A stretch of DNA of 64,000 nucleotides, from contig JABDFW010000008.1 of assembly GCA_013286305.1 (NCBI GenBank), positions 1,596 to 65,595 on the forward strand, in the 5' to 3' direction. Positions 48,703 to 63,970 of the stretch are shown here, piece by piece. Below the pieces are notes generated by a model, which ran no database searches, was not told where the DNA came from, and saw nothing but the letters and a program-made list of their open reading frames with translations. Both the position numbers and the translations under genes were made by a program. Position 1 is the stretch's first letter. Every line of letters begins with the position of its first letter. Origin of the DNA: Bacteroidota bacterium (GTDB lineage: Bacteria > Bacteroidota > Bacteroidia > Chitinophagales > Chitinophagaceae).

Positions 48703-51190
48703 ATACCGTTGCCACCCTTATTATATCTGCAAATACACCGCTTGCTGTAACATCTGCACCCGCGCCCGCTCCCTTTACCACCAGTGGCTGTTCAGGATAA
48801 CGCTGTGTGTAAAAGAGCACGATATTATCCTTACCATAAAGATGATAAAAATCGCTGTTTGCCGGAACATGCTGCAACCCAACCTGTGCTTTACCATCTG
48901 CATAACTGGCAACAAATTTAAGCTTACAATTTTCCGCACCGGCAGACTTATATAGCGCTTTAAAATGATCTTCGTGCTTTGCCATTTCTTTATAAAAATC
49001 GGCTACATCACCTTCAAAGCAACTGGCAGGCAAAAAACTATTGTTGGCAATATCATTCATTTCAATCTTTTCACCGGCCTCACGCGCGAGTATCATTATT
49101 TTACGCATTACATCGGTGCCGCCAAGATCGAGGCGCGGGTCTGGTTCTGTGTAACCTTCATCCTGGGCTTGTTTTACAACTTCTGCAAAAGGCCTGGTGC
49201 CATCATAATTATTAAAAACAAAATTAAGCGTGCCGGATAAAACGGCTTGTATCTTATTTACCTTATCACCACTTCTTCTAAGATCATTTAAAGTACCTAT
49301 TACAGGTAACCCTGCCCCAACATTTGTTTCAAACAGGAAGAGTGCATTGTACTCATTTGCCAGCGCCTTTAAATGGTTATAGTTTTGGTAAGAAGATGAG
49401 GCAGCTATTTTATTGCACGCCACTACTGAAACAGCTTTTGACAATAACCTGTCATATACAGTAGCAACTTCTGCGTTGGCTGTTACATCTACAAAAACTG
49501 AGTTACGCAGGTTTTTATTTATCACCGTTTCAACAAATTCGTCAAGGTTATTGTCCTGTGCATTTAGCAACAGTTCCTTCCAGTTGGCAAGATCTATCGC
49601 ATTACCATTACCAACAAACAACATTTTTTTGCTGTTAGATATGCCGGTTACCCGCACCTGCAGGTTAAGGTGTTCCAATAAAAATTGCTGTTGCTGTTTT
49701 AGCTGCCCGAGCAATTTGCTGCCCACATTGCCTGCGCCTACAATAAATATATTTAGCTGTTTATACGCTGTTTCAAAAAATGCTTCGTGCAAAACGTTTA
49801 CACCTTTCTTTACATCGTTTGCAGAGATAACAGCAGAGATATTTCTTTCAGATGATCCCTGTGCTATAGCCCGCACATTAATGCCATTTCTTCCCAAAGC
49901 ATCAAACATTCTTCCACTTATACCCGGGTGGCTTTTCATTTTATCACCAACAAGCGCAATGATGGAAAGGCCCTGTTCTATTTTTAAAGGCTCTACCCGG
50001 CCTTGCGCTATTTCTATTTCAAATGTTTTGTCAACTGATTCTGTTGCCCGTGCAACATCGGCGCTATTTACGCCTACGCAAATAGAATGCTCTGAGGAAC
50101 TTTGTGTTATCAGTATTACATTAATGTTTTCATGCGCCAATGCTTCAAATAATCTTTTTGAAAAGCCCGGGATACCTACCATACCGCTACCCTCAAGGCT
50201 TAGCAATGCAATGTTATTGATACTGGATATGCCCGTGATGATACCTGAGCCCCCATCCCCCCGAACTGAATTCGGGGCAGGCTCTAAAGGAGTGTGAAGT
50301 ATAATGTTTTCACCCATTACCGTACCGGCTTCATTTGGCGCAAATGTGTTTTTTATCCAGGTGGGTATCTGTTTTCGCATTACCGGCTGAATGGTTGGGG
50401 GATAAATCACTTTAGCGCCAAAATGCGATAATTCCATTGCCTCCTGGTAAGAAATTTGGCTAATGGTTTTTGCGTTGGGTACCCAGCGCGGGTCTGCTGT
50501 CATCATACCTGTAACATCTGTCCATATTTCAAGGCACGATGCATTTACAGCCGCCGCAAAAATAGCAGCCGTATAATCAGAGCCGCCCCGGCCCAACGTG
50601 GTTATGTGGCCATGATCATCACTGGCGATAAAACCGGGGGCCAAAAAAATACCTTTTCCGGATGACGTTATCCTGTAAGAAATAAGATCGTTGGTAATAC
50701 TGAAATTAACAGCGGCAAATCCGTAATGGCTGTTGGTTTTTATAACAGCCCTTGAATCAATCCAATCGTGATCCACACCGGCAGACAGCATATAAGCTGA
50801 AATAATTTTAGACGACAGCAATTCCCCAAAACTTACAATGCGGTCTATAATGCGGGACGACAGTTCTTCCAGGTAAAATATGCTGTTGCATATTTCTTCC
50901 AGTTCGTTGCAGTGTTTTTTTATCATGCTTAAACAACTGCTTTGGTGTGTTACCGGCAATAAGGCCCTGGCGGTATCAAGATGCTTTTTTTCTAATTGCT
51001 GCAATACTTCTTTATATACTTCATCATTTTTCTCTGCTAAACTGCCGGCTTTAAGCAGTTGGTCTGTTACGCCGCCTAAAGCAGATACAACAACTACACT
51101 GGGTTCAGTATTGGTTTTAATTATACTAACTACCTTTTGAATATTTTCAGCATTTGCTACCGAAGAACCGCCAAATTTTAAAACTTTCAT
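48701..51190 (-). CDS. thrA: Bifunctional aspartokinase / homoserine dehydrogenase
   Basis: 829 aa: N-terminal MKVLKFGGSSVANAENI, aspartokinase, ACT domains, and homoserine dehydrogenase (FIVGAGNVGSKLL... through the C-terminus). Confidence 0.95.
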   Translation of the reverse strand: MKVLKFGGSSVANAENIQKVVSIIKTNTEPSVVVVSALGGVTDQLLKAGSLAEKNDEVYKEVLQQLEKKHLDTARALLPVTHQSSCLSMIKKHCNELEEICNSIFYLEELSSRIIDRIVSFGELLSSKIISAYMLSAGVDHDWIDSRAVIKTNSHYGFAAVNFSITNDLISYRITSSGKGIFLAPGFIASDDHGHITTLGRGGSDYTAAIFAAAVNASCLEIWTDVTGMMTADPRWVPNAKTISQISYQEAMELSHFGAKVIYPPTIQPVMRKQIPTWIKNTFAPNEAGTVMGENIILHTPLEPAPNSVRGDGGSGIITGISSINNIALLSLEGSGMVGIPGFSKRLFEALAHENINVILITQSSSEHSICVGVNSADVARATESVDKTFEIEIAQGRVEPLKIEQGLSIIALVGDKMKSHPGISGRMFDALGRNGINVRAIAQGSSERNISAVISANDVKKGVNVLHEAFFETAYKQLNIFIVGAGNVGSKLLGQLKQQQQFLLEHLNLQVRVTGISNSKKMLFVGNGNAIDLANWKELLLNAQDNNLDEFVETVINKNLRNSVFVDVTANAEVATVYDRLLSKAVSVVACNKIAASSSYQNYNHLKALANEYNALFLFETNVGAGLPVIGTLNDLRRSGDKVNKIQAVLSGTLNFVFNNYDGTRPFAEVVKQAQDEGYTEPDPRLDLGGTDVMRKIMILAREAGEKIEMNDIANNSFLPASCFEGDVADFYKEMAKHEDHFKALYKSAGAENCKLKFVASYADGKAQVGLQHVPANSDFYHLYGKDNIVLFYTQRYPEQPLVVKGAGAGADVTASGVFADIIRVATV
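50247..50294. repeat. GC-rich hairpin repeat inserted in frame inside thrA
   Basis: GAGCCCCCATCCCCCCGAACTGAATTCGGGGCAGGCTCTAAAGGAGTG is translated (minus strand) as HTPLEPAPNSVRGDGGSG, in the linker before the ACT region (GISSINNIALLSLEG). Confidence 0.7.
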
Positions 51191-51346: not shown

Positions 51347-51430
51347 TTACAGGGTTGTTGTAATAGTAGTAGTGGCGGGTGTCCCGGGAGTAGAGGAAGA
51401 AGAAATGATATGTTGATATAAGCTTACCAT
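51347..51430 (-). promoter_or_regulatory. thrL: Candidate thr operon leader peptide (27 codons, Thr-rich)
   Basis: The minus-strand ORF MVSLYQHIISSSSTPGTPATTTITTTL-stop lies 156 nt upstream of the thrA ATG. Eight of 27 codons are Thr, including TTTITTT. The stop codon sits inside the AACCCT-gtaa-AGGGTT hairpin. Confidence 0.6.
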
Positions 51431-51508: not shown

Positions 51509-52765
51509 TTACACCAAATACCCAAACAACGTATCATCTTTATTTAGCTCCGTAAAGTCAATATTATACTGCCGCATTTTTTCAACCAGGTCGTCGTAAT
51601 CATGCCTTGATTGCAATTCTATCCCCACCAATGCAGGCCCTGATTCTTTATTTGTTTTTTGTATATACTCAAAACGGGTAATATCGTCTTTGGGGCCAAG
51701 CACAAGGTTTAAAAATTCCCGCAAGGCACCGGGCCGTTGTGCAAAGTTCACCAGGAAATAATGCTTCAATCCCTCATACTGCAGGGAACGCTCTTTTATT
51801 TCAGGCATACGGTCAATATCATTGTTGCTTCCGCTTACAATGCAAACCACTGTTTTACCTTTTATCAATTCTGCATAATCATCAAGCGCAGCGATAGATA
51901 ATGCGCCGGCAGGCTCAACCACTATTGCATCTTCATTGTATAATTTCAAAATGGTGGAACATACTTTCCCTTCGGGTACAAGGCGCACGTCGTCTAACAC
52001 TTCTTTGCAAATAGCAAATGTAATGTCACCTGTACGTTTTACTGCGGCACCATCAACAAACCTGTCTATACTATTCAATGTTACCGGGTAGCCCGCTTTG
52101 AATGCTTCCAGCATACTTGGAGCGCCTTCAGGTTCAAGCCCAATTATTTTTGTTGAAGAAGAAACGGTTTTAAAATAAGTGCCAACACCTGATGCCAGGC
52201 CACCGCCACCGATGGGTACAAATACGTAGTCAATGTTGGTTAAATCCTCAAGTATCTCTACGGCAACCGTTCCCTGCCCTTCAATGATCCGGTAATCATC
52301 AAATGGCGGAATAAAGGCCATGTTGTGTTCTTCCGTATATTTTTTTGCAGCAACAGCGCAATCATCAAAGGTGTCGCCAATCAATACTATTTCAATACTA
52401 TCTTCTCCAAACATCATAGTTTGCCTAACCTTTTGTTTGGGGGTAATAATAGGCATGAAAATAACGCCTTTAATACCCAGCTTCCTGCAACTATAGGCGA
52501 AGCCCTGGGCATGATTGCCCGCACTGGCGGTAGTTACGCCATTCTTCAATTTTTCTGGTGGCAATGTACTTATCATATTATAAGCGCCGCGTAATTTGTA
52601 GGAGCGTACAACCTGCAGGTCTTCCCTTTTCAAATAAATATTTGCGCTATACCTCCGTGAAAGATTATGATTAAGCTGAAGCGGTGTTCAGTTAACTATA
52701 TCCTTTAGACGGTTGTGTGCGGCTATAAAATCCAAATGATATGTTGTGTCGGTAATTTTATTCAT
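51509..52765 (-). CDS. ilvA: Threonine ammonia-lyase (biosynthetic threonine dehydratase) interrupted by an in-frame TGA at codon 26; possible pseudogene or sequencing error
   Basis: The ATG at 52765 gives [62 protein letters not shown]..., where TGA is the plus-strand TCA at 52688-52690. The ORF-track version (51509..52633, TTG start) lacks the conserved TPLQ N-terminus. Confidence 0.85.
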
Positions 52766-52866: not shown

Positions 52867-53127
52867 TCAGCATTTATTTTTAAAGCCATACTTAGGCCTT
52901 CTTTCTTCGTGATATTCTTTTTTGAAATCAAAATCATCAGTAAAGGTTAATTCAGGTTTTGGCATGCTGTCAAGTATATCAAGCAGAGATTGTTCTTCCT
53001 TATTTCTTGTGAGTATCCTGAAATGATCTTCCACTAATTCAGATAAGCTTAACCCTTTTTTTGCAGCATACATTTTTGCCTTTTTTAGCAATGTTGCTTC
53101 AATGGTAATATACAATATCGCTTTCAT
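52867..53127 (-). CDS. DUF6364-like small protein (antitoxin-like, RHH-type N-terminus), orphan
   Basis: The 86-aa MKAILYITIEATLLKKAKMYAAKKGLSLSELVEDHFRILT pattern matches the Bacteroidota DUF6364 family. No adjacent toxin ORF. Confidence 0.65.
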   Translation of the reverse strand: MKAILYITIEATLLKKAKMYAAKKGLSLSELVEDHFRILTRNKEEQSLLDILDSMPKPELTFTDDFDFKKEYHEERRPKYGFKNKC

Positions 53128-53164
53128 TTCTAAAATTCGTTGAGTTACACACTTATCTTAATTA

Positions 53165-53407
53165 TTAACCAAATAAATCTTTTAACACCTGCTCTTTTGA
53201 TATAGCAAAATGTACTGATACCAGCGTTATTATTCCATTGAGTGTGCCTATTTTAATTGGATCGTGGTTAGGTATTGCTAAATGATGTTCTCCTTCCCGT
53301 TGAGTTGTAACCATTATATGACTTCCATTTTGACGGATTACCTGATAGCCATATACCTTCAGGGCTTTAATTACATCCTTTCCGGATATATCCCGTGGCA
53401 TTTTCAT
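53165..53407 (-). CDS. hicA: HicA-family (YcfA-like) mRNA interferase toxin
   Basis: 80 aa: MPRDISGKDVIKALKVYGYQVIRQNGSHIMV matches the HicA signature (..GKE.IK.L...G....RQ.GSH). It overlaps the upstream hicB by 4 nt. Confidence 0.85.
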   Translation of the reverse strand: MKMPRDISGKDVIKALKVYGYQVIRQNGSHIMVTTQREGEHHLAIPNHDPIKIGTLNGIITLVSVHFAISKEQVLKDLFG

Positions 53408-53613
53408 AAGGCCATAATTTCATCCCGCACAAAGTGCAAATGCGCAAATATTGGTGTATTTTCGGCCTTATTAAAATAACAATCTATCCCCCCCTTTATA
53501 TTTTCTTTTAACTCCTCTATTGTTTCCCCTTCAGCAAAAATTCCTAACCCTGCGGCCTGTGCATAATAGCCCCCTTCATCTGCTTCATGTACTAAAAAAG
53601 TAATTTCTTTCAT
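53404..53613 (-). CDS. hicB: HicB-family antitoxin (UPF0150-like domain only)
   Basis: 69 aa: FLVHEADEGGYYAQAAGLGIFAEGETIEELKENIKGGIDCYF matches the HicB N-terminal fold pattern. Translationally coupled to hicA. Confidence 0.8.
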   Translation of the reverse strand: MKEITFLVHEADEGGYYAQAAGLGIFAEGETIEELKENIKGGIDCYFNKAENTPIFAHLHFVRDEIMAL

Positions 53614-54513: not shown

Positions 54514-55560
54514 TTATTGGTTCTCAGGCCTTAAGCTTCTTACCGTTTTACCTGCACGCCACATTTCGCTTTCCCTCAGTTCTTTTAATTCTTCATTCAG
54601 TTTTTCACGATAGTCAGGCTGGCTGTTGCTGTCAATACTGCGCTGGCTTTCTTTGCCTGCAGCAACGCTTTCATACAATTCTTTAAATACAGGCGCCGTT
54701 GCATCACGAAACCTTTTCCACCAATCCAATGCGCCACGCTGCGCTGTAGTGCTGCAATTGGCATACATCCAGTCCATACCATTTTCTGCAACCAAAGGCA
54801 TTAATGATTGCGTTAGTTCTTCTACTGTTTCGTTAAATGCTTCTGAGGGGGTATGGCCTTTATCACGCAGCACCTGGTACTGTGCAGCAAAAATTCCCTG
54901 AATAGCACCCATTAAAGTTCCGCGCTCACCGGTAAGATCGCTATATACTTCTTTCTTAAAGTTGGTTTCAAAAAGGTAGCCGCTGCCCACCGCAATGCCA
55001 AGTGCAATAACTCTGTCTTTTGCTTTGCCTGTTGCATCCTGAAAAATAGCATAGCTGCTGTTCAATCCACGCCCCTGCAAAAACATCCTCCGCAAAGATG
55101 TTCCCGAGCCTTTAGGAGCAACCAAAAATACATCTACATCAGCGGGAGGAATAATGCCTGTTTGTTCGTTAAACGTAATACCAAACCCATGTGAAAAATA
55201 TAAAGCTTTGCCGGCAGTTAAATGTTTTTTAACCGTAGGCCATAATTCAATTTGCGCTGCGTCGCTGAGCAGGTAACAAATAATGGTACCACGTTCTAAG
55301 GCTTCTTCAATGTCAAATAAAGTTTCGCCGGGCACAAAGCCATCAGCTACTGCTTTATCCCATGTTTTGGAGCTTTTGCGTTGCCCAACAATTACATTAA
55401 TACCATTGTCGCGCTGGTTCAATGCCTGGCCGGGGCCCTGCACGCCGTAACCTATTACTGCTATGGTTTCATTTTTTAAAACTTCCTGTGCTTTGCTTAA
55501 CGGAAACTCGTCGCGGGTAACTACATTTTCTTCTACCCCGCCGAAATTTAATTTTGCCAT
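54514..55560 (-). CDS. ilvC: Ketol-acid reductoisomerase (class I)
   Basis: 348 aa with VIGYGVQGPGQALNQRDNG and LSDAAQ motifs. Confidence 0.97.
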   Translation of the reverse strand: MAKLNFGGVEENVVTRDEFPLSKAQEVLKNETIAVIGYGVQGPGQALNQRDNGINVIVGQRKSSKTWDKAVADGFVPGETLFDIEEALERGTIICYLLSDAAQIELWPTVKKHLTAGKALYFSHGFGITFNEQTGIIPPADVDVFLVAPKGSGTSLRRMFLQGRGLNSSYAIFQDATGKAKDRVIALGIAVGSGYLFETNFKKEVYSDLTGERGTLMGAIQGIFAAQYQVLRDKGHTPSEAFNETVEELTQSLMPLVAENGMDWMYANCSTTAQRGALDWWKRFRDATAPVFKELYESVAAGKESQRSIDSNSQPDYREKLNEELKELRESEMWRAGKTVRSLRPENQ

Positions 55561-55790
55561 GTTTGTTGTTTTGTACGCCCCACCCTAAAGGAAGTTCCGG
55601 GGCTGGTTTTTAAATATTACTTGTTGTTGGTTATAGAAATTTTTTGTTTGCCTGCTGTATATCCTTATGCTGCTTTACTTGTGTCACACTCTTGTACGTT
55701 CTTTTTTTTATTGAGCATTGAACATTGAGTATTGAATATTTCAACATTGATTATTTCGATATTACTTTTTTTGTACAATCATCTATTATA

Positions 55791-56477
55791 TCATTTAATT
55801 GTATCAAGGTTCTGCTTAATAATATCTGTTATCAGTTCCAGCCGTTCCTGTTGAATTTCCTTTCTTGCGTCTATTACCTTATCAACAATTTCTTTCTCCG
55901 CTGTTTTGGGTGAGCCCGCATTAAATGGTGGTGACGGGTTATATTCCATCATCAACTGAATTTCCTTAGCTGCATTTTCGCCTGCCAATTCAGCAACTAC
56001 AAATAAACCAAAATCTATTCCGGCGGTTACACCTCCTCCTGTTATCCTGTTCCTGTCCATCACTACCCTTTCTTCCAACACCTCCACATCAAACAGGCTC
56101 AGCAGGCCTAACGACAGCCAATGTGTTGTGGCTTTATACCCATTCAACAAACCTGCTGCAGCCAACACTAAAGCGCCTGTGCAAACAGATGTAACATATT
56201 TTGCATGCACTGCCTGTTGCTGTAAATAATGCAACAACTTTTTATTTTGCATTGCGCCAAACACTCCTTTACCACCGGGAACAAATAATATATCAACCTG
56301 CGGCGAATCGTCAAATGTTATATCAGGTGTAAGTACCAGTCCTGCATCACTTGTGACCGGTGCTAAACTTTCAGCCACCAAAAGAATTTGTACACCTGGC
56401 AATCTACCAAATACATCATAAGGGCCCGTAAGGTCCAGTTGAGTTAATTCCGGAAAAATCACCATACCTATTGTCAT
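55791..56477 (-). CDS. DJ-1/PfpI family protein (class-I glutamine amidotransferase-like fold)
   Basis: Start MTIGMVIFPELTQLDLTGP at 56477, with a nucleophile-elbow Cys (VTSVCTGALVLA). Upstream codons in the ORF track are a translated GC-rich repeat. Confidence 0.85.
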   Translation of the reverse strand: MTIGMVIFPELTQLDLTGPYDVFGRLPGVQILLVAESLAPVTSDAGLVLTPDITFDDSPQVDILFVPGGKGVFGAMQNKKLLHYLQQQAVHAKYVTSVCTGALVLAAAGLLNGYKATTHWLSLGLLSLFDVEVLEERVVMDRNRITGGGVTAGIDFGLFVVAELAGENAAKEIQLMMEYNPSPPFNAGSPKTAEKEIVDKVIDARKEIQQERLELITDIIKQNLDTIK

Positions 56478-56485
56478 AGACCATG

Positions 56486-56529
56486 CCCCTATCCCCGTCC
56501 GGCCAGTCATCCGGGCGGGCCTAAAGGGG
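56486..56529. repeat. GC-rich hairpin repeat, long form (ilvN / DJ-1 junction)
   Basis: CCCCTATCCCCGTCCGGCCAGTCATCCGGGCGGGCCTAAAGGGG. Confidence 0.8.
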
Positions 56530-56598
56530 TATTTTAATTTATTACAACTGTTCTCAACTATCACAATCAGACGGAGACCGTCAGATCGTATCGAGAGT

Positions 56599-57186
56599 TT
56601 ACATACTAAATACTTCTTCCTGCTTATTCAAAAATTCGTTCTCCACCACTTCTTCGCCCGGTTCCCCCTGTTCAAATTCTTTTAATTTTTCATGAAACCC
56701 ATTACTTGTTTTTATAATAGCCACTCTCGCACTGCGTACAAACTCTATTAAACCATAAGGCTCCAGTGCTTTGATCAAACCTTCTGTTTCTTCGCGGTGG
56801 CCTGATGTTTCAAACACCGTATAATCCTTGCGGATCAATACTGCTCTTGCCCCAAACTGGCGCAGCAATCTTTCTACTTTTACTTTTTCTGCAATTACAT
56901 CGGTAGGCACTTTATACAGAGCAAGTTCCTGCCAAACAATTTCTTCGTTGGTATTATAATAAGCTTTTAAAACTTCAACCTGCTTTTCAATTTGGCGGCA
57001 AAGCTTACGCACAACCTCTTCTGTTTCGTTTATTACAATAGTAAAACGGTGAACGCTTTCAATTTCCGAAGGTGATGTATTTAAACTTTCTATATTGATC
57101 TTACGCCGCGAAAAAATGATCGCGATACGGTTTAGCAAACCAACCTGGTTTTCTGTATAAACTGTAACAGTATATTCTTGTTTCAT
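56599..57186 (-). CDS. ilvN: Acetolactate synthase small (regulatory) subunit
   Basis: 195 aa with an ACT domain (TVTVYTENQVGLLNRIAIIFSRRKINIESL) plus the ALS_ss_C region. Confidence 0.93.
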   Translation of the reverse strand: MKQEYTVTVYTENQVGLLNRIAIIFSRRKINIESLNTSPSEIESVHRFTIVINETEEVVRKLCRQIEKQVEVLKAYYNTNEEIVWQELALYKVPTDVIAEKVKVERLLRQFGARAVLIRKDYTVFETSGHREETEGLIKALEPYGLIEFVRSARVAIIKTSNGFHEKLKEFEQGEPGEEVVENEFLNKQEEVFSM

Positions 57187-57276
57187 AATCCCTATCCCCT
57201 AAAGCGGGGCTTTTTAAACCACCCTATCTTAACGGGGAGTTGTTTGTTAATAAATTTTATAATAATGCCTCTTCTT

Positions 57277-57313
57277 CCCCTTTAGGGCCGCCTGTGCCGG
57301 TACGGACGGGGGC
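57277..57313. repeat. GC-rich hairpin repeat, long form (ilvB / ilvN junction)
   Basis: CCCCTTTAGGGCCGCCTGTGCCGGTACGGACGGGGGC matches the copy at 47139-47175 at 35/37 positions. A short-form copy, CCCTATCCCCTAAAGCGGGGC, is at 57190-57210. Confidence 0.85.
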
Positions 57314-57323
57314 ATCTGTTCTC

Positions 57324-59066
57324 CTACTTCAATCTTATCTCTCCTACACCACAACCCTGCGGCACCATCGGGAACACATTATTCTCTTTACCCACCATTA
57401 CTTCCAGCAGGTAAGAGCCCTCATGTTCAAGCATTTCCTTTAATGTTGATCTCAAATCTTTTCTGTCGCTGATAGATTTGCCTGCAATACCATACGCTTT
57501 AGCGATCATTACAAAATCGGGGCTTTGAATATCTACAAAAGAATATCTCCGGGAATTAAACAGTTCCTGCCATTGGCGCACCATGCCCAAAAACCTGTTA
57601 TTCAGAATAATGATCTTAACGTCAGCACCAAACTGCATAATAGTGCCAAGTTCCTGCAAGGTCATTTGAAAACCACCATCGCCAATAATAGCAACCACCG
57701 TTCTTTCCGGCGCTCCATATTTTGCCCCTATTGCTGCAGGCAATGCAAAACCCATGGTGCCTAAGCCCCCGGAAGTAACATTACTTTTTGACTGTGTAAA
57801 TTTTGCATAACGGCAGGCTACCATCTGGTGCTGGCCTACATCTGTTACAATAACAGCATCACCTTTGGTAAATTCGTTCAAGGCATCTATTACTTCGCCC
57901 ATGCTCATCTCTTGCTTAGAAGGATGAAGTTCATCATAGATCACTATTTCATTTTCTTTTACCGTTGCTTCATGAAAACGCTGTAGCCATGCGGTATGTT
58001 CTTTCTTTTCAATCAGTTCAGTTAACAGGGGCAATGTTTCCTTGCAATCGCCCCATACAGGCGCTAATGCCTTTACATTTTTATCAATCTCAGCAGGGTC
58101 AATATCCAGGTGAATAACTTTTGCCTGCTTTGCATATTTATCCAAACGGCCTGTAACACGGTCGTCAAAACGCATACCCACCGCTATCAATACATCACAT
58201 TCATTGGTAAGCACATTTGGGCCATAATTGCCGTGCATGCCAAGCATACCCACATTTAGAGGATGGCCGGTTTCTAATGCACTTAAGCCAAGAATAGTCC
58301 ATGCGGCCGGTAAACCGCCTTTTTCAATAAATGCCTTTAATTCATTTTCTGCTTCGCCGAGAATCACACCCTGGCCAAATATTACAAAAGGCCTTTCCGC
58401 TTCATTAATAAGCTTTGCTGCCTGGGCAATATATTCTTTACGCACGATTGGCTTGGGGCGGTAGCTGCGTACTTTTTTACATTTAGTGTAGCCTTCATAA
58501 TCAAATTTTTGCACTTGCGCATTTTTGGTAATATCAATCAGCACCGGGCCGGGGCGGCCGCTCTTGGCAATATAGAATGCCTTTGCAAGTGCAGCAGGTA
58601 TTTCTGTAGCGTCTGTTACCTGGTAATTCCATTTGGTAACGGGTGTAGTTATATTTATAACATCAGTTTCCTGGAAAGCATCTGTACCCAGCAGGTGCGC
58701 AAACACCTGGCCTGTTATACATACCAGCGGAGTACTGTCAATTTGTGCATCAGCCAAACCCGTAACTAAATTTGTTGCACCGGGGCCGCTGGTTGCAAAT
58801 ACAACACCCACTTTACCGGATGTTCGCGCAAAACCCTGCGCGGCATGTATGGCGCCCTGCTCGTGGCGTACCAATATATGTTCCAGTTTATCCTGGTAAT
58901 CGTACAATGCATCATAAATAGGCATAATGGCGCCGCCGGGATAACCGAAAATAGTTTTTACACCTTCTGCTATCATGGCTTCCAGTACTGCCTCGCTCCC
59001 GGTAATGCTAACTGTTTTTTTTGCAGGTACCGAAATTCTTTCTTCTATTATTTCAAGGATTTCCAT
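57324..59066 (-). CDS. ilvB: Acetolactate synthase large (catalytic) subunit
   Basis: 580 aa with ThDP motifs (IFGYPGGAIMPIYDAL, GLGTMGFALPAAIGA, IIGDGGFQM). Confidence 0.97.
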   Translation of the reverse strand: MEILEIIEERISVPAKKTVSITGSEAVLEAMIAEGVKTIFGYPGGAIMPIYDALYDYQDKLEHILVRHEQGAIHAAQGFARTSGKVGVVFATSGPGATNLVTGLADAQIDSTPLVCITGQVFAHLLGTDAFQETDVINITTPVTKWNYQVTDATEIPAALAKAFYIAKSGRPGPVLIDITKNAQVQKFDYEGYTKCKKVRSYRPKPIVRKEYIAQAAKLINEAERPFVIFGQGVILGEAENELKAFIEKGGLPAAWTILGLSALETGHPLNVGMLGMHGNYGPNVLTNECDVLIAVGMRFDDRVTGRLDKYAKQAKVIHLDIDPAEIDKNVKALAPVWGDCKETLPLLTELIEKKEHTAWLQRFHEATVKENEIVIYDELHPSKQEMSMGEVIDALNEFTKGDAVIVTDVGQHQMVACRYAKFTQSKSNVTSGGLGTMGFALPAAIGAKYGAPERTVVAIIGDGGFQMTLQELGTIMQFGADVKIIILNNRFLGMVRQWQELFNSRRYSFVDIQSPDFVMIAKAYGIAGKSISDRKDLRSTLKEMLEHEGSYLLEVMVGKENNVFPMVPQGCGVGEIRLK

Positions 59067-59120
59067 AATCCAATTTTTATTTTTTAACGATCAATATTCA
59101 GCTTGAATGTTAATTGCAGT

Positions 59121-60809
59121 TCAACCCATTTCATCCGTCACACAACCTTCAGCGGCATTCTTAACATTCTTTGCATATTTATATAAAACCCCATTTGTTG
59201 CTTTTAATGCAGGCTGTTTCCAGGCTGCCTTCCGCTTAGCTATTTCCTCATCACTCACTTTAAGCGTCATCTTTTTGTGTACTACATCAATTTCAATTAC
59301 ATCATCATCTTTTACCAGGGCTATCAATCCTCCCTCAAACGCTTCCGGAGTGATGTGCCCGACGACAAACCCATGCGTACCACCACTAAACCTTCCATCC
59401 GTTATTAGTGCTACCGATTTACCAAGCCCCGCGCCTATAATAGCTCCGGTAGGCTTTAGCATTTCGGGCATACCAGGTGCTCCTTTAGGGCCGATGTGCC
59501 TTATTACCACCACGTCACCCGCATGAACACGTCCGCTCTGAATACCTTTTATAAGATCGTGCTCGCCGTCAAACACTCTTGCAGAGCCTTCAAAACGTTC
59601 GCCTTCTTTTCCGCTTATTTTCGCAACACTGCCGCCTTCTGCAAGGTTGCCATACAATATTTGCAAATGGCCTGTTTTTTTCAGCGGGTTCTCCAGCGGA
59701 TGTATAATATCCTGTGTGTTAAAATCAAGGTCAGGTGCATCGGCCAGGTTTTCTGCAACGGTCTTACCCGTCGCTGTCAAACATTCGCCGTGCAAAAGCC
59801 CGTTGTTTAATAAATATTTCATAACGGCAGGCAACCCTCCTTTTGCATGCAGGTCTTGCATCAAATATTTGCCGCTTGGTTTAAAATCTGCAAGTACCGG
59901 TATTCTGTCGCTGATGACCTGGAAATCATCCTGCGACAATGGCACTCCTACACTTTTTGCCATTGCAATTAAATGCAATACGGCATTGGTACTGCCGCCA
60001 AGAACCATTACAACTGTAATTGCATTTTCAAATGCTTTACGTGTCATAATGTCCCTGGGCTTAATATCTTTTTCCAATAACAATTTTATTGCCTTGCCAA
60101 TCGCAGCACATTCTTTTTGTTTGTCTTCGCTCAATGCCGGGTTAGATGATGAATTAGGCAGGCTCATACCAAGCGCTTCAATGGCACTGGCCATCGTATT
60201 TGCCGTGTACATGCCTCCACAGGCGCCAGCACCGGGACAAGAGTGGCGAACAATATTTTTAAAATCAGCTTCATCCAGGTTACCTGCGATCTTCTGGCCA
60301 AGCGCTTCAAAAGCCGAGACAATATTCAGGTCCTGGCCGTTGTAATGCCCGGGGGCTATGGTACCGCCATATAACATAATAGAAGGGCGGTTAAGCCTGC
60401 CCATAGCCATAATAGAGCCGGGCATATTTTTATCACAGCCGGGTATTGTAATTAAGGCATCATAATATTGGCCACCGGCGTTTGTTTCAATACTGTCAGC
60501 GATCAGGTCGCGGCTAACCAGGCTAAAACGCATACCGTCAGTACCCATGCTTATACCATCACTTACACCGATGGTATAAAAACGCAAACCAAGCAAACCT
60601 TCTGTTGCATTAACGCTTTTTTTCACATCTGTCGCAAGATCGTTCAGGTGCATATTACAGGGGTTGCCATCCCAGCCCATACTTGCAATGCCCACTTGTG
60701 CTTTATTAAAATCTTCTTCAGTAAAGCCTATAGCATAATACATTGCCTGCGCCGCAGGTTGCGTTGGATCCTGTGTTAACGTTTTACTGTACTTGTTAAG
60801 TTCCGCCAT
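59121..60809 (-). CDS. ilvD: Dihydroxy-acid dehydratase
   Basis: The true start is [29 protein letters not shown] (ATG 60809..60807), with the CDKNMPG and [15 protein letters not shown] motifs. The 40 upstream codons include a translated repeat. Confidence 0.95.
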
Positions 60810-60951
60810 ACCCCTATCCCCTGAAGGGGGATTTGAAACTTGATTACTGCCATTTTGCTGGTTCATGATTAAATCTTTGTGTTTATTATTCCGGCTTTTG
60901 TTCTTTACTAAAAATTTGTTGCGTCGCACACTTCAACAGATTGTTTATTAT

Positions 60952-61365
60952 TCAACTTTTATTTATCAACTCGTATGATTGTTTCATCCATTTCTTTAAC
61001 TGTTCATCTATATCTTTCTCACCGTCAACCTTTACAATATGCACCACCCTGTGTTTGGATGTTTGTAAAAATTTTGCAACAGGCGGCACATCTTCCAGGT
61101 GATCTAAAAAAAACTCAATCTCCAGGTGGCTCTTCTTAACCTTTACTGCCAGGAAGGTACTTTTTGTTTTAAAAAAAATCACATCCGGCGCAACTGCTTC
61201 TTCCCTGTACCTGCCAAAAGTTTTGACTATTGCCTCTATTTCCTCAAATAATCCTTTCAATAATGGCGGCCGCTTTATAAAAAAGCTTTCCTTATCAACA
61301 AGCTTACATCCGTGTATTTGCTCAGCTTTTTTAAAGCTACGTCCGCATTTTGGGCATATCCACAT
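60952..61365 (-). CDS. Small Zn-ribbon plus DUF5655-like protein
   Basis: 137 aa: MWICPKCGRSFKKAEQIHGC, followed by a domain resembling DUF5655/DUF4287-type proteins. It starts 18 nt after the attenuator terminator. Confidence 0.6.
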   Translation of the reverse strand: MWICPKCGRSFKKAEQIHGCKLVDKESFFIKRPPLLKGLFEEIEAIVKTFGRYREEAVAPDVIFFKTKSTFLAVKVKKSHLEIEFFLDHLEDVPPVAKFLQTSKHRVVHIVKVDGEKDIDEQLKKWMKQSYELINKS

Positions 61366-61382
61366 AATAAATGAGTAATAAA

Positions 61383-61410
61383 AAACCCGCCTCTCTGTGG
61401 AGGCGGGTTT
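61383..61410 (-). terminator. Attenuator terminator of the ilv leader
   Basis: The minus strand reads AAACCCGCCTC-cacaga-GAGGCGGGTTTTTTATT: an 11-bp GC-rich stem plus a U tract, 25 nt after the leader stop codon. Confidence 0.8.
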
Positions 61411-61434
61411 GCTATAATTTGTTTATTGTTATAA

Positions 61435-61533
61435 CTAACTTATACCTCCATGCAGGGCAGGAATAATAATGACAACGACTACCACAACTATTGTGATATT
61501 GTTTACAATATTATTTATCCTGTTTCTAAGCAT
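61435..61533 (-). promoter_or_regulatory. ilvL: ilv operon leader peptide (32 codons, Val/Ile-rich)
   Basis: The minus-strand ORF is MLRNRINNIVNNITIVVVVVVIIIPALHGGIS-stop. It has a run of 6 Val and 3 Ile, plus more Ile and Val upstream, and is followed by a canonical terminator. Confidence 0.8.
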
Positions 61534-61550
61534 AGCGGCTTTATATACTA

Positions 61551-61581
61551 CGAATATATGAAAGCCTGTTCAAACTGCAAA
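61551..61581 (-). promoter_or_regulatory. Possible Bacteroidota-type promoter (-33 TTTG / -7 TATATTCG) for the ilv leader
   Basis: The minus strand reads cTTTGcagtttgaacaggctttcaTATATTCG, with a 19-nt spacer. The -7 box has one mismatch to TAnnTTTG. About 18 nt upstream of the leader ATG. Confidence 0.3.
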
Positions 61582-61586
61582 GATCT

Positions 61587-62092
61587 GACCACGATTTTGA
61601 CCTGATTTTTCTGATTGCCCTGACGGGCCTTTTACTTATAATCAGGCTAAGCCCCCGGCAACGGCTTATACTTTTTATTAAATAACCTTTTCCACTCAAG
61701 GCTGCCCGCACCAAAATTTATTAACATACCTACCTCAAAATTATAAGCCTCCAAATAATTAAGCCCCTGGTTGAGGTGGCTATTTTCTAACTTACTTAAA
61801 GCCTTTATTTCAACTGTTATTTTTCCTTCAACTAAAAAATCAACCCTTCGGTCACCAATTAATTTATCGCGATAATAGATTTGCACACTGGCTTCCTTTT
61901 TAAAATCAATCCCCATCAATTCAAACTCTATTGCCAAAGCTCTCTGACAAATAATTTCCTGGAAGCCATTACCCAATGCACCATGTACTGTCATGCATGC
62001 TTTAATTATTTTCTCCGTTATTTCACTATACTTGTACTCCATATTCAATAAGCGTTCAGGGCAATCAGAAAAATCAGGTCAAAATCGTGGTC
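61587..62092. mobile_element. 506-bp cassette: GxxExxY gene bounded by perfect 37-bp terminal inverted repeats
   Basis: GACCACGATTTTGACCTGATTTTTCTGATTGCCCTGA (61587-61623) is the exact reverse complement of TCAGGGCAATCAGAAAAATCAGGTCAAAATCGTGGTC (62056-62092). Confidence 0.7.
61647..62048 (-). CDS. GxxExxY family protein (PD-(D/E)XK nuclease-like)
   Basis: 133 aa: ...HGALGNGFQEIICQRALAIEFELMGIDF...RVDFLVEGKITVEIKAL... The G-x-x-E-x-x-(Y/C) and D...E.K pattern is typical of the GxxExxY family. Confidence 0.85.
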   Translation of the reverse strand: MNMEYKYSEITEKIIKACMTVHGALGNGFQEIICQRALAIEFELMGIDFKKEASVQIYYRDKLIGDRRVDFLVEGKITVEIKALSKLENSHLNQGLNYLEAYNFEVGMLINFGAGSLEWKRLFNKKYKPLPGA

Positions 62093-63206
62093 ATATGATC
62101 GTCGATTTTCTCAACTCTATATTTCCCTTATTCACTTCGCCGGTTATTTTGTTGCTTACAAAATCTGCTATCAGCTCCCCGATAGTGGAAGTGAAATAAA
62201 AATTTATGCTGTCAATATCTTTTGTTACAAAACTGTTCTGCAAGGTCCAGTTAACACCATCACGCACGTGTGCAGCTTCGTTCGGCATTCCTAAATAATC
62301 GAGCATCATGGCTGTAGATAAAATGGAGCCCAACGGATTGGCAATGTCCTTGCCTGCTGCCTGCGGGTATGAGCCATGAATGGGCTCAAACAATGCAGTT
62401 CCGGTTCCTATAGAAGCAGATGGCAATAATCCCAGCGAACCACTTAATACACTTGCCTCGTCACTGATAATATCACCAAACATATTTTCCGTAAGTATTA
62501 CGTCAAACTGTTTAGGGTTAAGTATAATCTGCATGGCGGCATTATCAACAAACATGTAGTCAACTAATACATCGTTATATTGCCCCGCTATTTCCTGAAC
62601 TACTTTTCGCCATAAGCGCGATGTTTCCAATACATTGGCTTTATCAACCAATGTCAATTTCCTTTTTCTCTGTTGTGCATATTTAAAAGCAAGGTGTGCT
62701 ATTCTTTCAATTTCGGGACGGGTATAAACGCAATCGTCACTTGCCCGGGTTTTGTCCTCACTCAACTCCTTCTTACCAAAATAAATTCCACCTGTCAGCT
62801 CGCGAAATATAATAAAATCAACCCCTTCCATTTGTTTCGCTTTAAGCGGCGATAAATGCTGCAACGATGGGTATGTAGTTATCGGGCGTATATTGGCAAA
62901 CAACTGCAGGCTTTTACGCAATTTAAGCAGCCCTTGCTCGGGCCTTACTTTCGCTGTAGGGTCATTATCATATTTGGGATGCCCTATTGCGCCAAACAAT
63001 ACCGCATCGCTATTTAAACAACTCTCAATTGTTTCATCAGGCAAGGGGTTGCCGGTTTTGTCAATGGCATCTGCCCCCATCAGGCAATAGGTATAATTAA
63101 ATGTATGGCCATATTGATGCCCCACTGCCTCTAATACTTTAATTGACTGGCGTGTAACTTCAGGCCCTATGCCATCGCCCAATATTACCGTTATATTCTT
63201 TTCCAT
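62091..63206 (-). CDS. leuB: 3-isopropylmalate dehydrogenase
   Basis: 371 aa with ITVILGDGIGPEV, NMFGDIISDEASVLSGSLGLLPSAS and EPIHGSYPQAAGKDIANP. The stop codon lies at the edge of the cassette TIR. Confidence 0.97.
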   Translation of the reverse strand: MEKNITVILGDGIGPEVTRQSIKVLEAVGHQYGHTFNYTYCLMGADAIDKTGNPLPDETIESCLNSDAVLFGAIGHPKYDNDPTAKVRPEQGLLKLRKSLQLFANIRPITTYPSLQHLSPLKAKQMEGVDFIIFRELTGGIYFGKKELSEDKTRASDDCVYTRPEIERIAHLAFKYAQQRKRKLTLVDKANVLETSRLWRKVVQEIAGQYNDVLVDYMFVDNAAMQIILNPKQFDVILTENMFGDIISDEASVLSGSLGLLPSASIGTGTALFEPIHGSYPQAAGKDIANPLGSILSTAMMLDYLGMPNEAAHVRDGVNWTLQNSFVTKDIDSINFYFTSTIGELIADFVSNKITGEVNKGNIELRKSTII

Positions 63207-63250: not shown

Positions 63251-63970
63251 CTAAGCAGCTATCACTGCTTTACTAACTGCACTTATTTGGTAACCATCCA
63301 CCAGCAATTCCAAAACATTTGTAATACATTTTGGTATTTCCTGTTCATAATGGCTAACATATATCAATGTCTTATTCAATCTTGTACACAATACATCGGT
63401 TAAGGCAACAAAATTTTGCACCTGTTCTTCATCAAGGCCCTGGCAGGGCTCATCAAAAACAAGCAATGGCGGATTTTTTACTAAAGCTCTTGCCAGCAAA
63501 ATCAAACGCTGTTGGCTCGTCGAAATTGTCGCAAGGGGCTTTTGTTGCACATGAGATAATCGCAAAAAACCCAACCATTGCCGTAATATGTTGTCCTGTT
63601 CCGGGGTTAATTTTTTATATAACCCGATTGTATCAAAAAAACCAGATGCTATAGTATTATAGCATGTAATATTTGTATCAAAATACCAATGCAATTCAGG
63701 TGACACATACCCTATCTTTCGTTTAATATCCCAAATACTTTCGCCTGTGCCCCTTTTCCTGTCAAATAAAACTATTTTATTAGCGTATGCTTGCGGGTGG
63801 TCACCTGTAACCAGGCTTAACAGCGTTGATTTACCCGCACCATTCGCGCCCCTTAACAGCCATTTTTCGCCACTGTTGACCTGCCAGTTCATATTTTCAA
63901 TGATCACTTTTTGTTGGTAGGCAACCCGAACATTTTCCATTTTTACAGCGATATCAAAATCGCTGTTCAT
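63251..63970 (-). CDS. ABC transporter ATP-binding protein (ModF-like single cassette)
   Basis: Walker A GANGAGKST, signature-like ISTSQQR, Walker B LLVFDEPCQGLD. Confidence 0.85.
   Translation of the reverse strand: MNSDFDIAVKMENVRVAYQQKVIIENMNWQVNSGEKWLLRGANGAGKSTLLSLVTGDHPQAYANKIVLFDRKRGTGESIWDIKRKIGYVSPELHWYFDTNITCYNTIASGFFDTIGLYKKLTPEQDNILRQWLGFLRLSHVQQKPLATISTSQQRLILLARALVKNPPLLVFDEPCQGLDEEQVQNFVALTDVLCTRLNKTLIYVSHYEQEIPKCITNVLELLVDGYQISAVSKAVIAA

What the first reader, a model, noticed from the sequence alone, without database searches (positions are those of the whole stretch)
61383..61581. Unannotated Val/Ile-rich leader peptide plus terminator: a classical ribosome-mediated attenuator in front of the ilv genes
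The minus strand carries a 32-codon ORF (61533..61435): MLRNRINNIVNNITIVVVVVVIIIPALHGGIS. Its VVVVVVIII run is the hallmark of branched-chain amino-acid attenuation leaders, as in the enterobacterial ilvGMEDA leader. A textbook terminator follows 25 nt after the stop codon (AAACCCGCCTC-cacaga-GAGGCGGGTTTTTT, 61410..61383). The leader's last codons contain TGGAGG, which can pair with CCTCCA in the terminator's left arm and loop. This gives a simple antiterminator/terminator switch: a ribosome stalled at the Val/Ile codons leaves TGGAGG free, whereas a ribosome reaching the stop codon masks it. Leader-peptide attenuation is best known from Proteobacteria, so a clean example in a Bacteroidota-like genome is worth documenting. 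It is below the ORF-track size cutoff.
Basis: partly seen in the sequence, partly recalled or inferred. Interest (0 to 1): 0.75.

Follow-up and report, generated by a model that had tools for sequence, protein, structure and literature searches.

The report
Ile/Val leader-peptide attenuator before ilv genes
A tiny unannotated gene packed with isoleucine and valine codons, followed by a transcription stop signal, most likely lets this Chitinophagaceae-like bacterium switch on its branched-chain amino-acid genes when Ile/Val run short; it is real and conserved, but it is a textbook mechanism already reported in the same phylum.

Summary
The minus strand carries the ORF MLRNRINNIVNNITIVVVVVVIIIPALHGGIS (61533..61435). 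A strong hairpin plus T6 tract (61410..61380) follows 24 nt after the stop codon.

The same element is present in 61 of 80 related Chitinophagaceae-like genomes, upstream of ilvE-ilvD or ilvD. Each copy has a conserved Bacteroidota-type promoter, an ORF of about 32 codons with an I/V run, and a terminator with strong covariation. Each also has a Gly-Gly tail encoded as GGAGG that is complementary to the terminator's 5' arm and loop (CCUCC).

Spacing is tightly conserved. In constrained folding, the antiterminator forms when a ribosome is stalled in the I/V run (53-57 of 57) and never when a ribosome sits on the stop codon (0 of 57). A covariance model built without the window hits it once, at 98 bits.

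No protector (1:2) hairpin is supported.

An Ile-rich ilvE leader with a mapped transcription start was already described in Flavobacterium psychrophilum (PMC9723704). I therefore rate this a new member of a known kind, absent from Rfam, Pfam, NCBIfam and gene calls. Regulation itself is inferred, not shown.

The parts
61578..61581 (-). Promoter -33 element, TTTG (within GATCTTTG)
   Evidence: Sequence. Aligned to the conserved GTTCTTTG block in 57 leaders. The strict motif TTTG-N18-20-TAnnTT[TC][GA] is present in 38 of 57 leaders against 0.4% of random 75-nt windows. The Bacteroidota promoter consensus is from established knowledge.
61551..61558 (-). Promoter -7 element, TATATTCG (consensus TAnnTTTG), 19 nt after the -33 element and 17 nt before the ATG. 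The predicted transcription start is near 61545, giving a 5' UTR of about 10-12 nt.
   Evidence: T46, A47 and T50 are invariant in alignment A1; motif statistics. The F. psychrophilum ilvE leader has a mapped TSS 9 nt before its ATG. The TSS in this window is inferred.
61435..61533 (-). Leader ORF of 32 codons plus stop: MLRNRINNIVNNITIVVVVVVIIIPALHGGIS
   Evidence: An ORF in the same frame is present in 61 of 80 relatives. Entropy follows a period-3 pattern (position 2 0.20, position 1 0.72, position 3 1.26 bits), and ORF gaps are multiples of 3.
61462..61491 (-). Regulatory codon run, codons 15-24: I V V V V V V I I I (proposed stall sites for uncharged tRNA-Ile and tRNA-Val)
   Evidence: Family averages are 7.8 Ile, 5.0 Val and 2.0 Leu per leader. 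Val codons vary among synonyms: GTG 113, GTC 88, GTA 48, GTT 38.
61444..61450 (-). Antiterminator 5' strand, UGGAGGU (last base of the His codon plus the Gly-Gly codons)
   Evidence: Duplex with the terminator arm is -14.3 kcal/mol against -7.1 +/- 2.2 for shuffled arms. The first Gly codon is GGA in 51 of 54 leaders, although GGA is the rarest Gly codon in the window's ilv and leu genes, 22 of 188. The GGAGG:CCUCC core is about 95% paired.
61398..61404 (-). Antiterminator 3' strand, GCCUCCA (distal 5' arm plus the first loop bases of the terminator)
   Evidence: The CC at alignment columns 238-239 is unpaired in the terminator in 42 of 57 leaders, yet C is kept in 56 and 48 of 57.
61380..61410 (-). 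Intrinsic terminator: AAACCCGCCTC / cacaga / GAGGCGGGTTT, with the T run extending to 61380
   Evidence: Across the family 88% of cells are paired, 6 pairs have changes on both sides (40 cells), and 0 of 500 shuffles reach the covariation score. It is the RNAalifold consensus structure.
60952..61365 (-). DUF5655 gene, the first gene after the terminator (starts 15 nt after the T-tract). It is specific to this lineage: in most relatives ilvE occupies this place.
   Evidence: Pfam PF18899, E = 6.8e-21. In 44 of 56 relatives the next ORF is about 300 aa, and it is Aminotran_4 in all 5 tested.
54514..60929 (-). Presumed regulated operon. ilvD: ORF 60929..59121, with the likely true start at the ATG near 60809. 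ilvB: 59066..57324. ilvN: 57186..56599. DJ-1/PfpI gene: 56564..55791. ilvC: 55560..54514.
   Evidence: Pfam assignments and the ilvD N-terminus. Co-transcription is inferred from shared strand and short gaps, not shown.

Best explanation
This is a ribosome-mediated (leader-peptide) transcription attenuator that senses charged tRNA-Ile and tRNA-Val. A Bacteroidota-type promoter starts a transcript about 10-12 nt before the leader AUG. If Ile and Val are plentiful, the ribosome runs through the I/V codons to the stop codon. There its footprint covers the GGAGG element, which starts 12 nt upstream of the stop. The terminator's 5' arm then has no competitor, the hairpin plus U-tract forms, and transcription ends near 61380. 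If Ile or Val is scarce, the ribosome stalls in codons 15-24. GGAGG begins 12 nt beyond the last Ile codon and stays exposed. As soon as the terminator's 5' arm and loop (GCCUCCA) emerge, they pair with UGGAGGU, the terminator cannot fold, and RNA polymerase reads on into DUF5655, ilvD, ilvB, ilvN and ilvC. Shown here: sequence anatomy, conservation, covariation of the terminator, complementarity and geometry of the antiterminator, and codon-level constraints. Inferred: the transcription start, ribosome stalling, termination and readthrough in vivo, and the extent of the operon.
For: ORF and hairpin are present and unique in the window. The element is conserved in 61 of 80 Chitinophagaceae-like genomes, always upstream of ilvE-ilvD or ilvD. 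Evidence of translation: period-3 entropy, gaps in multiples of 3, freely varying synonymous Val codons, and enrichment restricted to Ile and Val. Terminator covariation reaches 0 of 500 shuffles. Antiterminator: 83% paired in register against 46-64% when slid; duplex energies of about -14 to -20 against -7 to -11 kcal/mol for shuffled arms; GGA codon bias of 51/54 against 12% background; own tail-arm pairs are more stable than swapped pairs, with 0 of 5000 permutations as low, and L056, L015 and L061 are compensatory cases. Geometry: I/V run to anti-strand 11 nt (IQR 10-12), anti-strand to stop 14 nt (13-17), stop to terminator 25 nt (21-27). In nascent-RNA folding the antiterminator forms in 53-57 of 57 leaders with a stalled ribosome and 0 of 57 with a ribosome at the stop codon. 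A conserved promoter lies directly upstream. A model built without the window scores it at 98.1 bits, E = 5e-17. F. psychrophilum has an analogous ilvE leader with a mapped TSS and a 5' transcribed region.
Against: There are no experimental data for this organism or family, so termination, readthrough and the response to Ile/Val are all inferred. The GGAGG:CCUCC core is almost invariant, so column-wise covariation of the antiterminator is weak (15 of 500 shuffles). The register-free test does not correct for phylogeny. No protector or pause hairpin is supported, and folding predicts the antiterminator also forms on untranslated RNA (52 of 57). That differs from textbook attenuators and leaves the behaviour without translation unclear. 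About 15 related species lack the element and have leuB running straight into ilvE or ilvD, so it is dispensable. The first gene downstream here is not an ilv gene.
Confidence: 0.85

Rival explanations
1. The small ORF encodes a functional hydrophobic micro-protein (a single-pass membrane peptide or type I toxin-like peptide) with its own promoter and terminator, and its position next to the ilv genes is incidental.
For: The peptide has a hydrophobic core of about 14 residues and is conserved at the amino-acid level, with the consensus ...IIIVVVIIIPA..GGG. It has its own promoter and terminator.
Against: The hydrophobic core is built almost entirely of Ile and Val, with a mean of 2.0 Leu and essentially no Phe, Ala or Trp, unlike ordinary transmembrane segments. 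The position is always immediately upstream of ilvE or ilvD on the same strand, with the next gene starting 15-100 nt or so after the terminator and no room for another promoter. The GGA codon bias and the complementarity to the terminator arm are RNA-level constraints that a protein function would not impose.
Confidence: 0.04
2. The hairpin is simply the terminator of the upstream leuB and PD-(D/E)XK genes, and the ORF is a chance or non-functional reading frame.
For: The hairpin lies downstream of two genes on the same strand, and intrinsic terminators are common in intergenic DNA.
Against: A run of 10 I/V codons is expected about 1.6e-4 times per window. The ORF, its frame and its start codon are conserved in 61 genomes with codon-type substitution patterns. 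A conserved promoter sits between the upstream gene and the ORF. The element travels with ilvE/ilvD, not with any particular upstream gene.
Confidence: 0.02
3. The leader ORF does regulate the ilv genes, but not through the proposed RNA antiterminator. Possible routes are Rho-dependent polarity, direct occlusion of the terminator by a ribosome closely following the polymerase (pyrBI-like), or a second partner for GGAGG such as the 16S anti-Shine-Dalgarno sequence.
For: GGAGG is a perfect Shine-Dalgarno sequence and is nearly invariant, so its conservation alone does not prove pairing with CCUCC. No protector helix is supported.
Against: The stop codon lies a median of 25 nt before the hairpin, too far for a terminating ribosome to occlude it. 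Where the terminator arm differs, the tail changes to match: L056 has GAAGGUGG with CCGCCUUC, L015 has GUGGGUU with GACCCGC, and L061 has U-A in place of U-G. Own pairs beat swapped pairs. The loop bases CC, not needed for the terminator stem, are conserved.
Confidence: 0.07

Closest known systems
Flavobacterium psychrophilum ilvE leader (Guerin et al. 2021, ISME Commun, PMC9723704, supplementary D9 and Table S7)
   Same: It is in the same phylum and the same operon type (ilvE-ilvD-...-ilvC-ilvA). It has a short Ile-rich leader, MRKFNIIPSIIIAIVIITTAKGML, a 9-nt 5' UTR after a mapped SigA-type TSS, and an A-rich spacer of 21 nt. Its terminator is AAAGCCTTCC...GGAGGCTTTTTTT, and a GGA Gly codon near the ORF's end can pair with the terminator's 5' arm (-8.7 against -4.4 +/- 2.0 kcal/mol).
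   Different: It is only marginally alignable to the window's family: nhmmer gives 8.3 bits, confined to the Ile codons. It is shorter, Ile-dominated with few Val, lacks the P-A-L-H-G-G tail, and its terminator sequence differs. Whether the two are homologous or convergent is open.
Enterobacterial ilvGMEDA leader (ilvL) attenuator
   Same: It is a leader of about 32 codons with a V/I run followed by Pro, placed in front of BCAA biosynthesis genes, with an intrinsic terminator and a mutually exclusive antiterminator. It senses several BCAA tRNAs (mechanism and the E. coli peptide are from established knowledge). The NCBIfam ilvL model gives a weak hit through the I/V run.
   Different: It is not a sequence relative: 8.9 and 17.1 bits against a cut-off of 59, and no Pfam hit. 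The E. coli attenuator has a protector (1:2) hairpin and Leu codons as well. Here only a two-helix switch is supported, and Leu codons are not enriched. Promoter type and the Shine-Dalgarno-less short 5' UTR also differ.
Bacteroid-trp RNA motif (Rfam RF01692; Weinberg et al. 2010, PMC2864571)
   Same: It is a cis-regulatory leader element of an amino-acid biosynthesis operon in Bacteroidota, mapped as a Trp leader upstream of trpE in F. psychrophilum.
   Different: It concerns a different amino acid and operon. There is no match to it in the window, even at E <= 10 over the region.
[quoted passage not shown]
   Same: These are BCAA-rich upstream ORFs in front of ilv genes, proposed or shown to work by attenuation in other phyla.
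   Different: They come from different phyla, precede a different first gene (ilvB), and have different RNA structures. No Rfam model reaches its threshold on the window.

Membership tests
Leader-peptide (ribosome-mediated) transcription attenuators | Short translated ORF with tandem codons for the end-product amino acids of the downstream pathway | tested here: met
   There are 10 consecutive I/V codons in a 32-codon ORF. The ORF is conserved with codon-type substitution patterns in 57 aligned leaders. The downstream genes are ilvD/B/N/C, and ilvE-ilvD in relatives.
Leader-peptide (ribosome-mediated) transcription attenuators | Intrinsic terminator between the leader ORF and the first structural gene | tested here: met
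   An 11-bp G+C-rich stem plus T6. Family-wide covariation: 0 of 500 shuffles reach the observed score.
Leader-peptide (ribosome-mediated) transcription attenuators | Antiterminator helix that is mutually exclusive with the terminator, with its 5' strand masked by a ribosome at the stop codon and free when the ribosome stalls at the regulatory codons | tested here: met
   Conserved complementarity, GGA codon bias, register-free covariation, and conserved spacing with constrained folding giving 53-57 of 57 against 0 of 57. This evidence is computational only.
Leader-peptide (ribosome-mediated) transcription attenuators | Protector/pause hairpin (1:2) that sequesters the antiterminator strand when the leader is not translated | tested here: not met
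   The start-region:tail helix is 73% paired with no covariation (211 of 500 shuffles reach it). The ORF-internal Asn:Ile codon helix is 89% paired, but a slide of 3 columns gives 69%, and it does not involve GGAGG. On free RNA the antiterminator is still predicted in 52 of 57 leaders. This feature is typical of enterobacterial attenuators but is not essential to the mechanism.
Leader-peptide (ribosome-mediated) transcription attenuators | Readthrough increases when the cognate amino acid or charged tRNA is limiting | not testable with these tools
   This needs Term-seq, reporter assays or in vitro coupled transcription-translation.
Enterobacterial ilv operon leader peptide (NCBIfam NF007744; Pfam ilv leader families) | Sequence match above the curated cut-off | tested here: not met
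   NF007744 gives 8.9 bits for the window peptide and 17.1 bits for a relative, against a cut-off of 59. There is no Pfam ilv leader hit.
Rfam leader families (Thr, Phe, Trp and Leu leaders) and Arrc14 | Covariance-model score at or above the gathering threshold | tested here: not met
   The best scores are Arrc14 34.4 against 99, Phe_leader 30.3 against 55, Thr_leader 25.4 against 55, Trp_leader 22.1 against 41 and Leu_leader 20.3 against 50. The hits rest largely on the terminator and A/U-rich sequence.
Chitinophagaceae ilv leader family (defined here) | Full-length match to a covariance model built from 56 relatives with the window excluded | tested here: met
   98.1 bits, E = 5.1e-17, model positions 1-121, window 61494..61375 on the minus strand, the single hit in 64 kb. 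The same model recovers L006, L042, L059 and L064 at 79-108 bits.
Flavobacterium psychrophilum ilvE leader element (PMC9723704) | Sequence-level relatedness, beyond shared architecture | tested here: inconclusive
   The architecture is the same, but an nhmmer profile of A1 gives only 8.3 bits over the Ile codon run.

The most novel reading that the evidence does not exclude
The near-invariant GGAGG may do two jobs. It is the antiterminator strand, and it may also be a deliberate Shine-Dalgarno-like site 7-24 nt before the stop codon. Such a site could engage the 16S anti-SD of the terminating ribosome and hold it over the antiterminator long enough to guarantee termination. This would be in a phylum that otherwise avoids SD sequences for initiation. 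Together with the absence of a protector helix, which predicts readthrough whenever the leader is untranslated, this would make the element a distinct, minimal Bacteroidota design rather than a copy of the enterobacterial one.
Probability: 0.1. Interest if true: 0.55.

Novelty: new member of a known kind. Interest (0 to 1): 0.3.

Why it matters
It explains how a large group of soil and freshwater Chitinophagaceae probably control Ile/Val biosynthesis. It also gives annotators a concrete model for an element that is missing from Rfam, Pfam, NCBIfam and every gene call checked. That model comprises promoter, 32-codon ORF, GGAGG:CCUCC switch and terminator, available here as covariance model R1 and alignment A1.

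The element adds comparative depth to the single transcriptome-based report from Flavobacterium. It shows that leader-peptide attenuation, and so transcription-translation coupling, is probably routine in a phylum whose translation initiation differs from E. coli. The two-helix layout with tight spacing is a compact design that could serve as an amino-acid-responsive part in Bacteroidota. None of this overturns existing understanding.

Tried and rejected
- **Rfam:** searched at E <= 1 over 12 kb and at E <= 10 over the locus. Only sub-threshold hits to leader families and Arrc14.
- **Pfam and NCBIfam on the peptide:** no membership.
- **RNAalifold on the full alignment:** returns only the terminator, as expected for mutually exclusive structures.
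- **Start-region:tail helix (CCUUCAUG:CAUGGAGG; in the window CCGCUAUGC:GCAUGGAGG, 8 of 9) as a protector:** 73% paired in register, but no covariation, and the antiterminator out-competes it in partition-function folding. Rejected as unsupported.
- **ORF-internal hairpin (Asn AAUAAU with Ile AUUAUU, plus CAGGA:UCCUG) as a pause hairpin:** high pairing, but codon periodicity gives 69% at a 3-column slide, and the outer helix is only 57% paired. Left as possible.
- **pyrBI-like direct occlusion of the terminator by the ribosome:** rejected on spacing, since the stop codon lies a median of 25 nt before the hairpin.
- **Second leader in front of thrA:** a Thr/Ile-rich ORF exists, but no convincing terminator or stable fold (z = -1.3). 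Not pursued.
- **Vitreschak et al. 2004 and Lopatovskaya et al. 2010:** these comparative-genomics surveys of attenuators may already list Bacteroidota ilv leaders, but they are not held in the library and could not be read.
- **One literature search:** wasted on too broad a term.

Full report
**Observation**

The minus strand of the window reads ATG CTT AGA ... GGA GGT ATA AGT TAG from 61533 to 61435. This encodes MLRNRINNIVNNITIVVVVVVIIIPALHGGIS. Twenty-four nucleotides after the stop codon lies AAACCCGCCTC-cacaga-GAGGCGGGTTT followed by more T's (61410..61380). The pattern scan reports 11 pairs, 7 of them G-C, the hairpin folds at about -19 kcal/mol, and it appears in the minimum-free-energy and centroid folds of the region (z = -4.97 for 235 nt).

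This is not chance. The 10-codon I/V run is the longest in any of the six frames, and the next longest is 7. One hundred shuffled windows give a mean of 5.5 and a maximum of 7. The analytic expectation for a run of 10 or more in 64 kb on both strands is about 1.6e-4. In a whole-window scan it is the only small ORF that combines an amino-acid run with a hairpin plus T-tract.

**Context**

The order on the minus strand is as follows:

| Feature | Coordinates |
|---|---|
| ABC ATPase | 63970..63251 |
| leuB | 63206..62091 |
| PD-(D/E)XK (PDDEXK_3) gene | 62048..61647 |
| Leader and terminator | 61533..61380 |
| DUF5655 gene | 61365..60952 |
| ilvD | ORF from 60929; true start probably the ATG near 60809 |
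| ilvB | 59066..57324 |
| ilvN | 57186..56599 |
| DJ-1/PfpI gene | 56564..55791 |
| ilvC | 55560..54514 |

ilvA and thrA, thrB and thrC follow. So the first gene after the terminator is DUF5655, not an ilv gene. It starts 15 nt after the T-tract and would be under the same control.

**Relatives**

A scan of one genome per species with the ilvD protein returned 80 loci, all Chitinophagaceae-like, at 74-88% ilvD identity.

- In 57 loci a simple search found an ORF of 23-35 codons upstream of ilvD on the same strand. It has an I/V run and a tail of the type ...P-A-L-H-G-G-G, followed by a CCCGCCTCC...GGCGGG hairpin and a T-tract.
- Four more have the element with an ambiguous or TTG start: L006, L042, L059 and L064. 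A covariance model confirms them at 79-108 bits.
- Four loci have too little upstream DNA to assess.
- In about 15 loci, leuB and other leu genes run straight into ilvE or ilvD with no leader within 4 kb.

In 44 of 56 leader-bearing relatives the gene after the terminator is an ORF of about 300 aa, which is a class IV aminotransferase (ilvE) in all five tested. In 12 it is ilvD directly. The ancestral unit is therefore leader, ilvE, ilvD and the rest, and the DUF5655 gene in this window is a lineage-specific replacement or insertion.

**Evidence that the ORF is translated**

- In the 57-sequence alignment A1, the ATG is at least 90% conserved.
- Gaps inside the ORF have lengths 3, 6, 9 or 12. 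The only exceptions are two leaders with a much shorter N-terminus.
- The I/V run shows a period-3 pattern of entropy: 0.72 bits at codon position 1, 0.20 at position 2 and 1.26 at position 3.
- Val codons vary freely among synonyms: GTG 113, GTC 88, GTA 48, GTT 38.
- The enrichment is specific to Ile (mean 7.8) and Val (5.0), not Leu (2.0).

**Promoter**

A1 shows a conserved GTTCTTTG-N19-TAtaTTcG block ending a median of 17 nt before the ATG. The strict motif is present in 38 of 57 leaders against 0.4% of random 75-nt windows, and the remaining leaders carry close variants. This matches the Bacteroidota -33 TTTG / -7 TAnnTTTG promoter consensus (established knowledge). In the window the two elements are at 61581..61578 and 61558..61551. 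The transcription start is inferred, not mapped.

**Terminator**

The 11-pair helix is 88% paired across the family. Six pairs show changes on both sides (40 cells), and none of 500 shuffles reach the observed covariation. It is the only helix in the RNAalifold consensus.

**Antiterminator**

The Gly-Gly codons are GGAGGNGG, complementary to the CCGCCUCC of the terminator's 5' arm and loop.

- In fixed register the helix is 83% paired, against 46-64% when slid. The GGAGG:CCUCC core is about 95% paired but nearly invariant, so column-wise covariation is weak (15 of 500 shuffles).
- Tail:arm duplex energies are typically -14 to -20 kcal/mol, against -7 to -11 for shuffled arms.
- The first Gly codon is GGA in 51 of 54 leaders, although GGA is the rarest Gly codon in the window's own ilv and leu genes, 22 of 188.
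- The two C's at alignment columns 238-239 are unpaired in the terminator in 42 of 57 leaders, yet C is kept in 56 and 48 of 57.
- A register-free test shows each tail pairs better with its own arm (-15.67 kcal/mol) than with the arms of other leaders (-14.81), and 0 of 5000 permutations are as low. The compensatory cases are L056 (GAAGGUGG with CCGCCUUC), L015 (GUGGGUU with GACCCGC) and L061 (U-A in place of U-G). This test does not correct for phylogeny.

**Mechanism**

Spacing is tightly conserved:

| Distance | Median | IQR |
|---|---|---|
| End of I/V run to antiterminator strand | 11 nt | 10-12 |
| Antiterminator strand to stop codon | 14 nt | 13-17 |
| Stop codon to terminator | 25 nt | 21-27 |

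I folded the nascent transcript, with the 3' arm not yet made, under a masked 28-nt ribosome footprint. The tail:arm helix forms in 53 of 57 leaders with the ribosome in mid-run and in 57 of 57 with it on the last I/V codon. It forms in 0 of 57 with the ribosome on the stop codon.

Two candidate additional helices are not supported:

- A start-region:tail pairing (consensus CCUUCAUG:CAUGGAGG) is 73% paired with no covariation.
- An ORF-internal Asn:Ile codon hairpin is 89% paired, but still 69% after a 3-column slide.

Because the antiterminator is also predicted on ribosome-free RNA (52 of 57), the element looks like a two-helix attenuator without a protector. Untranslated leaders would read through. 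That is a prediction, not a result.

**Membership**

- A covariance model built from the 56 relatives with the window left out hits the window once, over its full length, at 61494..61375 on the minus strand: 98.1 bits, E = 5e-17. The next hit, 18.5 bits, is the reverse strand of the same hairpin.
- No Rfam family reaches its threshold. The best are Arrc14 at 34 against 99, and the Phe, Thr, Trp and Leu leaders at 20-30 against 41-55.
- The peptide does not match Pfam, and it scores 8.9 bits against the NCBIfam enterobacterial ilv leader model, whose cut-off is 59.
- Ten exact leader peptides, including those from RefSeq isolates, are absent from a 15-billion-protein collection.
- On the JGI metagenome contig that carries this locus, no gene is called in the 281 nt between the PD-(D/E)XK and DUF5655 genes.

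**Prior knowledge**

Leader-peptide attenuation of BCAA operons is textbook in Proteobacteria. It has been extended to Actinobacteria, Firmicutes and other phyla (PMC10272879, PMC5794164, PMC1262725).

Within Bacteroidota, Guerin et al. 2021 (PMC9723704) mapped a TSS and a structured 5' region in front of ilvE-ilvD-...-ilvA in Flavobacterium psychrophilum. They annotated a 25-aa Ile-rich 'leader peptide attenuation element', along with Trp, Phe and His leaders. The Bacteroid-trp motif dates from 2010.

The published F. psychrophilum sequence has the same layout as the window's element: a 9-nt 5' UTR, an Ile run, a GGA codon near the ORF's end, a 21-nt spacer, and a terminator arm that can pair with the tail. 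Its sequence similarity to the window's family is marginal, at 8.3 bits. Two older comparative surveys, Vitreschak 2004 and Lopatovskaya 2010, could not be read.

**Verdict**

The element is a previously uncurated family-level instance of a known regulatory kind in a phylum where that kind is already reported. Interest is modest. The points worth recording are the family definition, the GGAGG:CCUCC two-helix design with fixed spacing, the apparent lack of a protector helix, and the element's absence from current annotation resources.

Noticed in passing
window 51347..51430 (minus strand): A second leader-like ORF, MVSLYQHIISSSSTPGTPATTTITTTL, has a Thr/Ile run reminiscent of thr operon leaders. 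It lies about 155 nt upstream of thrA (51190..48701), which is followed by thrB and thrC. No convincing intrinsic terminator follows it, and the region does not fold unusually well (z = -1.3).
   Followed up: partly
window 52688..52690 (minus strand), within ilvA (ATG at 52765; ORF continues to 51509): There is an in-frame TGA at codon 26 of ilvA: [50 protein letters not shown].... The conserved PALP N-terminus continues after the stop. This could be a nonsense mutation or pseudogene, a sequencing error, or readthrough.
   Followed up: partly
window 62048..61647, 61365..60952, 56564..55791, 53613..52867, 48561..47134: The leu-ilv-thr cluster is peppered with small accessory genes on the same strand. 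These are PDDEXK_3, DUF5655, DJ-1/PfpI, a HicA toxin with a weak UPF0150/HicB-like partner, DUF6364, and a DUF559 endonuclease-like domain fused in one ORF with thrB.
   Followed up: partly
alignment A1 columns about 52-57 (promoter spacer); corresponds to window about 61566..61561: Most relatives have a conserved GGCGG(G) between the -33 and -7 promoter elements. It is identical to the terminator's 3' arm. The window and its closest relative L001 lack it and have AGGCTTT instead. It could be a protein-binding site, or relevant to read-in transcripts from leuB. It is unexplained.
   Followed up: no
L011, L017, L024, L033, L037, L038, L050, L058, L063, L066, L068, L074 and others: In about 15 related species, including Segetibacter koreensis, the leader and its promoter are absent, and leuB (371 aa) is followed directly by ilvE or ilvD. 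This suggests a fused leu-ilv operon controlled from further upstream.
   Followed up: partly
window 61530..61538 with 61445..61453; A1 columns 84-91 with 176-183: The start-codon region (consensus CCUUCAUG; window CCGCUAUGC) is complementary to the His-Gly-Gly codons (CAUGGAGG; window GCAUGGAGG, 8 of 9 pairs). This may explain the conserved His codon. It is 73% paired in register against 40-59% when slid, but shows no covariation.
   Followed up: yes
window 61505..61520 with 61462..61475 (leader ORF interior): The conserved Asn-Asn codons (AAUAAU) early in the ORF are complementary to the Ile codons (AUUAUU) of the run and form a long hairpin within the ORF in the MFE fold. This may be a pause hairpin, but codon periodicity makes the statistics ambiguous.
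   Followed up: yes
L081 (JGI metagenome 3300082510, contig Ga0672845_0125796): A 2.2-kb metagenome contig carries the identical DUF5655 protein in the same order: leuB, PDDEXK_3, a gap, DUF5655, ilvD. It is the only place in the gene-position index where this exact protein is recorded.
   Followed up: no
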